A stretch of DNA of 2,876 bases from Escherichia coli (GTDB taxonomy: Bacteria > Pseudomonadota > Gammaproteobacteria > Enterobacterales > Enterobacteriaceae), in assembly GCF_003334315.1 (NCBI RefSeq), contig NZ_QOWR01000107.1; one strand, written 5' to 3'. Below are positions 1 to 848 of this stretch, one piece after another (positions within the stretch are counted from its first letter, which is position 1; every line of letters starts with the position of its first letter). A program made the position numbers and the translations under genes. The notes beneath the pieces were generated by a model. That model was not told the DNA's origin. It searched no databases and saw nothing but the letters and a program-made list of their open reading frames with translations.

Positions 1-848
1 ATTATATCGAATGTGATTACAATCGGTGGCGGCGGCACAGTTGGTGTGGCGGCCTCAGTCCGGAACAATTTGAAAACAAGAACCTCGCTTAGGCCTGTGT
101 CCATATTACGTGGGTAGGATCAACGTTCCGTAAAAAGTTGTATGGAGTTCTCGATGCAGTCGGCGCGACTATCAGTACCCCCGCTGAACCCTGGACTATC
201 GGGCCGCCGTACTGGGGCATGTCACCCTGGCGTGCCGCTGGTTTTCCGCTAATGGTTTATTTCCTCTTTCTTTCCCGGCAAGAATTTATTTTAATCCGGA
301 AGGATTATTTATTTTCAGATAGGGACTCACATTAAACACGTAACATTTTAATTAATGCATGGCTGAATATGTATTACACAATGTCAGATATCGTAAAAGA
401 CCAGTGCAATTCTATGTAAACTCTCTGACTGTTCATTTTATTTGTTGTTTCAGGGTCGGAACTCACCCTCAATAAACAACTGAATACGAGTAGATATTCA
501 TCGTCTGAGCTATATGGCTTTACACAATAGCCGACATGTCTTTTCTCAGTCAGGAATTTTACTTTTCCTCACTACGAAGTTGACGACTTCGATATGGGAT
601 AGACTCTTAATTCAAGCAATTACTCTGCACAAGCATCAGGCAATCCAGCTCCAATATTTGTTATAAAATAATGCGTAACATTAATTTCACCAACAAAAAA
701 AAGGTTTACACCATCCCCTTGCCCTGGTATCTTACCATATTTACACCACACTTTTTTGTATCTGGATCATTCTTTGATACGATTTTCGCCACTTGTTCCC
801 TGGCCCTCACTGTCAATGTTTTCTTAAACCTACCCCCATCATCATTTG

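What the first reader, a model, noticed from the sequence alone, without database searches (positions are those of the whole stretch)
1..260. GC-richer patch at the left edge with open frames on both strands, a possible gene remnant
Positions 1..260 are noticeably more GC-rich than the AT-rich 260..850 stretch. Plus frame 1 is open from the window edge to a TAG at 115..117, and a minus-strand frame is open across 92..256, but neither has a convincing start or RBS. This may be the end of a neighbouring gene or a decayed fragment; I cannot identify it.
Basis: seen in the sequence. Interest (0 to 1): 0.3.

Follow-up and report, generated by a model that had tools for sequence, protein, structure and literature searches.

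The report
IS3 end plus two gene relics
The GC-richer left edge of this E. coli window is ordinary genomic debris: the last 122 bases of an IS3 insertion sequence, a 36-base scrap of a dead IS481-type transposase gene, and the decapitated first 32 codons of a lost Rhs toxin gene (the K-12 pseudogene ylbI).

Summary
The window is the E. coli rhsD locus.

The patch is a mosaic of three known things.
1. 1-122 is the right end of an intact 1258-bp IS3. The inverted repeat ends at 122, and ACG is the 3-bp target duplication. Only 46 of 5426 complete E. coli genomes carry IS3 at this site.
2. 123-158, plus strand, is codons about 288-299 of a decayed IS481-family transposase. It is the tail of the K-12 ylbG relic.
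3. 159-253, minus strand, is the first 32 codons of an Rhs core gene, annotated in K-12 as pseudogene ylbI. About 60 nt of leader follows (254-313), with an intact Shine-Dalgarno sequence. The start codon is mutated from ATG to ATT. This stretch is 64% GC, as Rhs cores are, and produces the GC peak.

Nothing here looks functional or new.

The parts
1..122 (+). Right end of an intact 1258-bp IS3 copy. The rest of the element lies left of the window.
   Evidence: In L001 the element spans 3865-5122, which is 1258 bp, and starts TGATCTTACCC. The window ends it with ...GGGTAGGATCA at 122. Matches to other IS3 copies stop at 122-124. PGAP annotates it as 'IS3-like element IS3 family transposase'. 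The same 1258 bp is present in 3817 of 5426 genomes, at a median of 3 places per genome.
3..92 (+). Last 29 codons and the stop (TAG 90-92) of the IS3 transposase (orfAB/orfB), in plus frame 3.
   Evidence: The annotated CDS ends at L001 5092, which is window 92. The translation is YIECDYNRWRRHSWCGGLSPEQFENKNLA*. It matches NCBIfam transpos_IS3 positions 347-369 of 369, E 8e-5. The frame stays open for 305 codons to the left.
84..122 (.). IS3 right terminal inverted repeat (39 bp).
   Evidence: The reverse complement of the right end matches the left end at 28 of 39 positions, both starting with TGATC.
123..125 (.). ACG, the right copy of the 3-bp target-site duplication made by IS3.
   Evidence: L001 reads ...CAGGTGACG[IS3]ACGTTCCG. 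The K-12 empty site has a single copy...CAGGTGACGTTCCG.
123..158 (+). Internal scrap of an IS481-family transposase gene, about codons 288-299 of 346. It is the distal piece of the ylbG relic, which IS3 split.
   Evidence: The K-12 equivalent matches the E. albertii plasmid IS481-family transposase gene at L004 3329-3397 (81% DNA identity, E 5e-14). At protein level 19 of 22 residues are identical, QKTILNKFYQVTFRKKLYGVLD against codons 277-298. YlbG itself matches NCBIfam transpos_IS481 positions 2-112 of 284, E 2e-25.
159..253 (-). ylbI: codons 1-32 of an Rhs core gene, with the start codon mutated from ATG to ATT (251-253).
   Evidence: blastn gives 79% identity to the first 95 nt of rhsD, E 2e-18. 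NCBIfam RHS_core positions 1-33 of 1261 match at E 5e-12. The stretch aligns with rhsA, rhsB, rhsC, rhsD and a further rhs gene. In K-12 this is pseudogene ylbI, b4632, at 529497-529592. PGAP annotates a pseudo CDS, 'missing C-terminus', at 158-253.
254..313 (-). Remnant of the rhs 5' leader with the Shine-Dalgarno sequence (AGAGG at 263-267).
   Evidence: Homology to the intact rhs gene of L005 runs from 159 to 313 (76%, E 2e-24). Homology to the stub of L006 runs to 273 (alignment).

Best explanation
Positions 1-260, extending to about 313, are a non-functional mosaic left by mobile-element traffic at the distal end of the E. coli rhsD island.

Shown:
- An Rhs core gene once began at 253 and read leftwards. 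Only its leader and first 32 codons survive (ylbI).
- At 158/159 that stub is fused to an internal piece of an IS481-family transposase gene. This relic (ylbG) keeps its left inverted repeat next to selU. It has a 463-bp internal deletion that shifts the frame, and it lacks its last ~144 coding nt and its right repeat.
- In a minority lineage a complete IS3 later inserted 36 bp from that junction and duplicated ACG. The window starts inside this IS3.

Inferred:
- One illegitimate deletion, possibly at a shared GTCGG, removed the rhs body from codon 33 onward together with the right part of the IS481 element.
- The ATG to ATT change is decay after inactivation.

The GC step simply reflects this composition. 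The Rhs core DNA is 64% GC and the IS3 end 49%, and they abut AT-rich spacer downstream of the Rhs tips at 37%.
For: Locus identity: the window is 99.9-100% identical to the rhsD-ybbC-ylbH-ybbD-ylbI-ylbG-selU region.

IS3:
- It is 1258 bp long with terminal repeats and an ACG duplication, and K-12 shows the empty site.
- The breakpoint is at 122/123 in thousands of genomes.
- IS3 sits here in only 46 of 5426 genomes. It is otherwise an ordinary multicopy element.

Rhs stub:
- blastn E is 2e-18 to rhsD and 2e-24 to an intact rhs gene, including 60 nt of leader.
- NCBIfam RHS_core positions 1-33 match at E 5e-12.
- A multiple alignment shows ATT in place of ATG and loss of homology after codon 32.
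- 123-300 is present at 95% identity or more in 2787 genomes. All other hits are the 5' ends of annotated RHS core genes at 75-87% identity.

IS481 relic:
- The left part is 96% identical to the E. albertii element from its left end. Nucleotides 2866-3328 of L004 are skipped, and homology resumes at 81% up to window 158.

Background and function:
- A G+C-rich Rhs core and A+T-rich tips are established features (PMC2935791).
- Rfam finds no RNA family.
- Promoter and terminator scans are at chance level.
- The ybbD-ylbG interval is used as a neutral landing pad in MG1655 (bioRxiv 10.1101/2020.01.04.894907).
Against: - No genome with the intact ancestral arrangement was found, so the order of events and the single-deletion model are inferred, not observed.
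- The stub keeps an intact Shine-Dalgarno sequence, and a Genomic SELEX study lists a constitutive sigma-70 promoter between ybbD and ylbI (PMC3946193). Residual transcription or translation from ATT or ATG-12 is therefore not excluded.
- The near-identity of the stub across about 2800 genomes says nothing either way, because that level is normal within the species.
Confidence: 0.95

Rival explanations
1. Plus frame 1 (1-117) is the 3' end of a real gene that continues to the left of the window.
For: The frame is open from the window edge to TAG 115-117.
Against: In the parent genome the frame closes 18 nt left of the window, giving 44 codons in total. The annotated and profile-supported coding frame is frame 3, which ends at 90-92. 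Bases 84-122 are the IS3 terminal repeat.
Confidence: 0.01
2. The minus-strand ORF encodes a functional small protein, a PAAR-like N-terminal peptide of Rhs made from ATT 253 or ATG 220. It is 43 aa from ATG 220 in this strain and 34 aa in K-12.
For: The Shine-Dalgarno sequence is intact 9 nt upstream of the former start. A SELEX promoter lies upstream. The stub is retained in 2787 genomes.
Against: - The start codon is lost.
- After residue 32 the peptide is translated from the antisense of a transposase scrap.
- Its C-terminus differs between strains with and without IS3, running into the IS3 repeat here, so it is not conserved.
- The PAAR-domain match is only E 0.037 over 27 residues.
- K-12 and PGAP both annotate it as a pseudogene.
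Confidence: 0.03
3. The GC-rich patch is a structured non-coding RNA or a regulatory element. One candidate is a terminator for the transposase genes, formed by the hairpin at 216-236.
For: A terminator-like hairpin with a T-rich tail lies on the plus strand at 216-245.
Against: One such site was found against 0.5 expected by chance. Rfam gives no match at E up to 1. The hairpin lies inside sequence fully explained as Rhs coding DNA that is conserved in all rhs 5' ends.
Confidence: 0.02

Closest known systems
IS3 of E. coli (IS3 family, 1258 bp)
   Same: The length is 1258 bp. The terminal repeats run TGATC...GATCA. There is a 3-bp target duplication. The transposase C-terminus matches, and the element is 100% identical to copies in thousands of E. 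coli genomes.
   Different: Nothing differs except the insertion site, which is shared by only 46 of 5426 complete genomes.
ylbI (b4632), pseudogene of E. coli K-12
   Same: It is the same sequence: window 158-253 corresponds to K-12 529497-529592 at 100% identity.
   Different: The K-12 record as shown here carries no product name. This analysis shows it is codons 1-32 of an Rhs core gene with an ATT start, and that the homology includes about 60 nt of leader.
Rhs core genes rhsA-rhsD of E. coli K-12 and other RHS element core proteins
   Same: The first 95 nt are 75-82% identical. The N-terminal peptide is SGKPAARQGDM.QYGG.IVQGSAGV. The DNA is G+C-rich.
   Different: The stub lacks everything after residue 32: no YD repeats, no DPxGL boundary and no toxin tip. 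The start codon is mutated. No copy with 90% identity or more attached to an intact rhs gene exists among 5426 genomes.
ylbG (b0502) and the IS481-family transposase of Escherichia albertii plasmids (WP_256878404.1)
   Same: Window 123-158 continues the ylbG relic and matches codons 288-299 of the 346-codon transposase.
   Different: The relic has a 463-bp internal deletion with a frameshift and no right end. K-12 names ylbG a 'putative DNA-binding transcriptional regulator', but it is the helix-turn-helix head of a dead transposase.
Displaced ('orphan') Rhs C-terminal tips (Jackson et al. 2009, PMC2935791)
   Same: Both are an Rhs gene fragment lying downstream of a full rhs gene, recognisable as a GC peak with homology to the rhs core.
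   Different: Orphan tips are 3' fragments that keep a toxin-immunity pair, like ylbH-ybbD at 849-1800 in this window. This is a 5' fragment with no cargo. A second such 5' stub, cut by an ISAs1 element, was seen in another locus (L006).

Membership tests
IS3 (IS3 family insertion sequence) | Element of about 1258 bp bounded by imperfect terminal inverted repeats (5'-TG...CA-3') | tested here: met
   L001 3865-5122 is 1258 bp, and 28 of 39 positions of the terminal repeats match.
IS3 (IS3 family insertion sequence) | 3-bp direct target duplication, with an uninterrupted empty site in other genomes | tested here: met
   ACG flanks both ends, and K-12 has one ACG.
IS3 (IS3 family insertion sequence) | orfA-orfB transposase made by programmed -1 frameshift, with a DDE catalytic domain | tested here: inconclusive
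   PGAP annotates a joined CDS with a programmed frameshift. The window's 29 codons match the last 23 positions of NCBIfam transpos_IS3. The frameshift site and the DDE residues lie outside the window and were not examined.
Rhs core protein (NCBIfam NF041261 RHS_core) | Conserved N-terminal segment (MSGKPAARQGDM...) | tested here: met
   Profile positions 1-33 match at E 5e-12, and the DNA aligns with five rhs genes.
Rhs core protein (NCBIfam NF041261 RHS_core) | About 1200-residue core with YD repeats, a DPxGL boundary and a variable toxin tip | tested here: not met
   Homology stops after codon 32 at window 159. The score is 44 bits against a curated cut-off of 2000. It is a fragment of a member, not a member.
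Rhs core protein (NCBIfam NF041261 RHS_core) | Functional start codon | tested here: not met
   ATT stands at 251-253 where all aligned rhs genes have ATG.
IS481 family insertion sequence | Transposase with an N-terminal helix-turn-helix and a C-terminal integrase-core (rve) domain in one frame | tested here: not met
   YlbG matches only profile positions 2-112 of 284. A 463-bp deletion removes L004 2866-3328 and shifts the frame, and only codons 277-299 follow.
IS481 family insertion sequence | Two terminal inverted repeats | tested here: not met
   The left end is present: homology to L004 starts at 2398, 13 bp after the selU stop. The right end (L004 about 3574-3599) is absent, because homology ends at L004 3397 and abuts the Rhs stub.

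The most novel reading that the evidence does not exclude
The Rhs 5' stub, made of leader, Shine-Dalgarno sequence and 32 codons, would be kept rather than merely not yet lost. In one version it is a short homology arm that lets incoming rhs genes recombine into the distal end of the rhsD island. In another it is a weakly translated PAAR-like peptide made from ATT or ATG-12. A second, independent 5' stub beside an ISAs1 element in another rhs locus (L006) hints that such stubs recur.
Probability: 0.03. Interest if true: 0.35.

Novelty: already known. Interest (0 to 1): 0.07.

Why it matters
It matters little biologically. The region is a junkyard at the edge of the rhsD island, and MG1655 engineers already use it as a neutral integration site.

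The practical value is for annotation.
- It explains the GC step.
- It shows that the plus-strand ORF a naive reader would pick is the wrong frame.
- It gives ylbI a concrete identity: Rhs codons 1-32 with a dead start codon.
- It shows that K-12's 'putative transcriptional regulator YlbG' is the helix-turn-helix head of a broken IS481-family transposase, whose tail continues to window 158.
- It maps a lineage-specific IS3 insertion that could serve as a strain marker.

Tried and rejected
- **Rfam.** A scan of the whole window at E up to 1 gave no match.
- **Promoters and terminators.** A consensus scan of 1-900 found 2 promoter-like and 1 terminator-like sites, no more than shuffled sequence gives.
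- **Inverted repeats.** A search around the K-12 ylbG-ylbI junction looked for IS ends abutting the stub and found only short chance pairs. The real left repeat of the IS481 relic emerged only from comparison with the E. albertii element.
- **Intact ancestor.** No E. coli complete genome has 159-300 at 90% identity or more attached to a full rhs gene. The closest full genes are 75-82% identical.
- **Upstream homology.** The spacer 314-850 shows no homology to the rhsD upstream region or to the upstream region of the L005 rhs gene.
- **Junction in other species.** An exact 26-mer across the 158/159 junction was scanned in one genome per bacterial species. It gave a single hit, an E. coli contig mis-binned into an 'Alistipes' MAG. 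The junction was therefore not seen in other Escherichia species representatives, although an exact-match search is strict.
- **Searches not run.** Large protein-database searches and structure prediction were not run, because a 32-residue fragment already identified by profile and DNA homology would gain nothing from them.

Full report
**Where the window comes from**

A megablast against 5426 complete E. coli genomes places the whole window, at 99.9-100% identity, in the rhsD locus. On the minus strand it holds these features:
- the 3' end of rhsD (2208-2876)
- the immunity-type gene ybbC (1800-2168)
- the orphan Rhs C-terminal fragment ylbH (1090-1800)
- ybbD (849-1109)

An AT-rich spacer follows, and then the finding region. 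To the left lie ylbG, selU/mnmH and allS.

**Checking the observation**

The composition step is real. GC is 53.1% over 1-260 and 36.6% over 261-850 (Fisher p = 8e-6), and the peak is 64.2% over 159-253.

Plus frame 1 is open to TAG 115-117. The minus frame is open over 92-256, between TAA codons at 89-91 and 257-259.

**Part 1, bases 1-122: the right end of IS3**

- PGAP annotates an 'IS3-like element IS3 family transposase' whose CDS ends at window 92.
- That is plus frame 3. Bases 3-92 translate to YIECDYNRWRRHSWCGGLSPEQFENKNLA* and match the last 23 positions of the NCBIfam IS3 transposase model.
- In the parent genome frame 3 stays open for 305 codons to the left.
- The element is exactly 1258 bp (L001 3865-5122). 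Its terminal repeats start TGATC at both ends and match at 28 of 39 positions.
- It is flanked by ACG on both sides, while the K-12 empty site has a single ACG (...CAGGTGACGTTCCG...).
- In a search with bases 1-340, matches to other IS3 copies stop at 122-124 and matches to IS3-free genomes start at 123. Only 46 of 5426 genomes contain the junction.
- The element itself is the usual multicopy IS3, found in 3817 of 5426 genomes at a median of three places per genome.

**Part 2, bases 123-158, plus strand: a scrap of an IS481-family transposase gene**

- K-12 YlbG (123 aa) matches the N-terminal 112 positions of the NCBIfam IS481 transposase model at E 2e-25.
- It is 92% identical to the head of a 346-aa IS481-family transposase on Escherichia albertii plasmids.
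- At the DNA level the K-12 relic is 96% identical to that element, starting from the element's left end 13 bp after the selU stop and running through nt 366 of the gene.
- It then skips 463 bp at a 9-nt microhomology, which shifts the frame and creates the ylbG stop.
- Homology resumes at 81% for codons 277-299, where 19 of 22 residues are identical. It ends at window 158.
- The last ~144 coding nt and the right terminal repeat are missing.
- IS3 inserted inside this second piece.

**Part 3, bases 159-313, minus strand: the 5' end of an Rhs gene**

- Bases 159-253 are 79% identical to the first 95 nt of rhsD, beginning exactly at its start codon (E 2e-18).
- The peptide ISGKPAARQGDMPQYGGPIVQGSAGVLIVAPT matches positions 1-33 of the NCBIfam RHS_core model (E 5e-12).
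- Against an intact rhs gene from another strain (L005) the homology extends through about 60 nt of leader to 313 (E 2e-24).
- An alignment with rhsA, rhsB, rhsC, rhsD and that gene shows three things. A Shine-Dalgarno sequence is conserved (AGAGG, 263-267). ATT replaces the universal ATG at 251-253. Similarity is lost abruptly after codon 32.
- K-12 annotates exactly this stretch as pseudogene ylbI (b4632), and PGAP calls it a pseudo CDS 'missing C-terminus'.
- Rhs cores are known to be G+C-rich and their tips and surroundings A+T-rich (Jackson et al. 2009, PMC2935791). That accounts for the GC peak.

**How it arose**

Three things are shown directly:
- An rhs 5' stub is fused head-on to an internally deleted IS481 relic that lacks its right end.
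- A later IS3 insertion has a clean target duplication.
- The stub is present at 95% identity or more in 2787 genomes, including K-12, BL21 and O157:H7. The only other hits are the 5' ends of full rhs genes at 75-87% identity.

The rest is inferred. One illegitimate deletion probably removed the rhs body from codon 33 together with the right part of the IS481 element. GTCGG occurs at the junction and in both parental sequences. The ATG to ATT change would then be decay. No intact ancestor was found, so the order of events is not proven.

**Function**

The most likely answer is none.
- Rfam finds no RNA family.
- Promoter and terminator matches are at chance level.
- The minus-strand ORF beyond residue 32 is the antisense of transposon DNA, and its end differs between strains with and without IS3.
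- The ybbD-ylbG interval is used as a neutral landing pad for reporter libraries in MG1655 (bioRxiv 10.1101/2020.01.04.894907).

There are two caveats. A Genomic SELEX study lists a constitutive sigma-70 promoter between ybbD and ylbI, TCGTCA-19-TAAAAT, which I locate at window 586-556 on the minus strand (PMC3946193; sequence). The Shine-Dalgarno sequence is also intact. Some transcription, or weak translation from ATT or from ATG 218-220, therefore cannot be excluded.

**Comparison with what is known, and verdict**

All three components are known and annotated: IS3, ylbG and ylbI. The analysis adds detail only: exact boundaries, the correct reading frame, the IS481 identity of ylbG and its tail, and the ATT start of ylbI. 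The finding is real but ordinary, so it scores low on interest and is classed as already known.

Noticed in passing
K-12 locus L003 7646-8017 (ylbG), left of the window: K-12 RefSeq names ylbG a 'putative DNA-binding transcriptional regulator'. It is the helix-turn-helix head of an IS481-family transposase, 92% identical at protein level to an E. albertii plasmid copy. A 463-bp internal deletion at a 9-nt microhomology truncates it. The left terminal repeat is still present 13 bp after the selU stop.
   Followed up: yes
L006 5001-5058 (E. coli strain 100416, rhs locus near yafV): A second, independent Rhs 5' stub lies downstream of an Rhs tip plus dsORF-h1 and abuts an ISAs1 (H-rpt-type) transposase pseudogene. 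It has about 20 nt of leader and about 13 codons, and is 87% identical to window 214-273. 5' stubs of rhs genes cut by insertion sequences may be recurrent.
   Followed up: partly
L011 (CASFSC010000074.1, 3995 bp): A contig filed under an 'uncultured Alistipes sp.' metagenome-assembled genome is 99.6% identical over its whole length to the E. coli K-12 rhsD-selU region. It is almost certainly a mis-binned E. coli contig.
   Followed up: yes
window 556-586, minus strand: TCGTCA-19-TAAAAT is the motif listed by Shimada et al. 2014 (PMC3946193) as a constitutive RpoD promoter between ybbD and ylbI. It points toward the dead Rhs stub about 300 nt downstream. My consensus scan did not pick it up.
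   Followed up: partly
window 216-245, plus strand: A terminator-like hairpin (GGCATGTCACCCTGGCGTGCC followed by GCTGGTTTTC) lies antisense to the Rhs stub coding sequence. One such site was found against 0.5 expected by chance, so it is probably fortuitous.
   Followed up: no
window 620-1109, minus strand: K-12 annotates one pseudogene, ybbD (528640-529130), across what PGAP splits in other strains into a 'YbbD family protein' (849-1109) and a separate 57-aa hypothetical protein (620-793). This suggests a frameshifted immunity-type gene downstream of the orphan Rhs tip ylbH.
   Followed up: no
window 1500-1800 and 2750-2876, minus strand: Two further GC-rich blocks (57% and 50%) are the conserved Rhs core ends (...DPLGL / DPMGL motifs) of the orphan fragment ylbH and of rhsD. 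They are about 86-89% identical to each other, the classic displaced-tip arrangement.
   Followed up: partly
L005 (E. coli GPEC1366) 2046-12112: Two full-length RHS core genes lie in tandem, separated by an ISEc1 (ISAs1 family) element and small ORFs. This shows that a second rhs gene downstream of a first one, the arrangement inferred for the ancestor of ylbI, does exist in E. coli.
   Followed up: no
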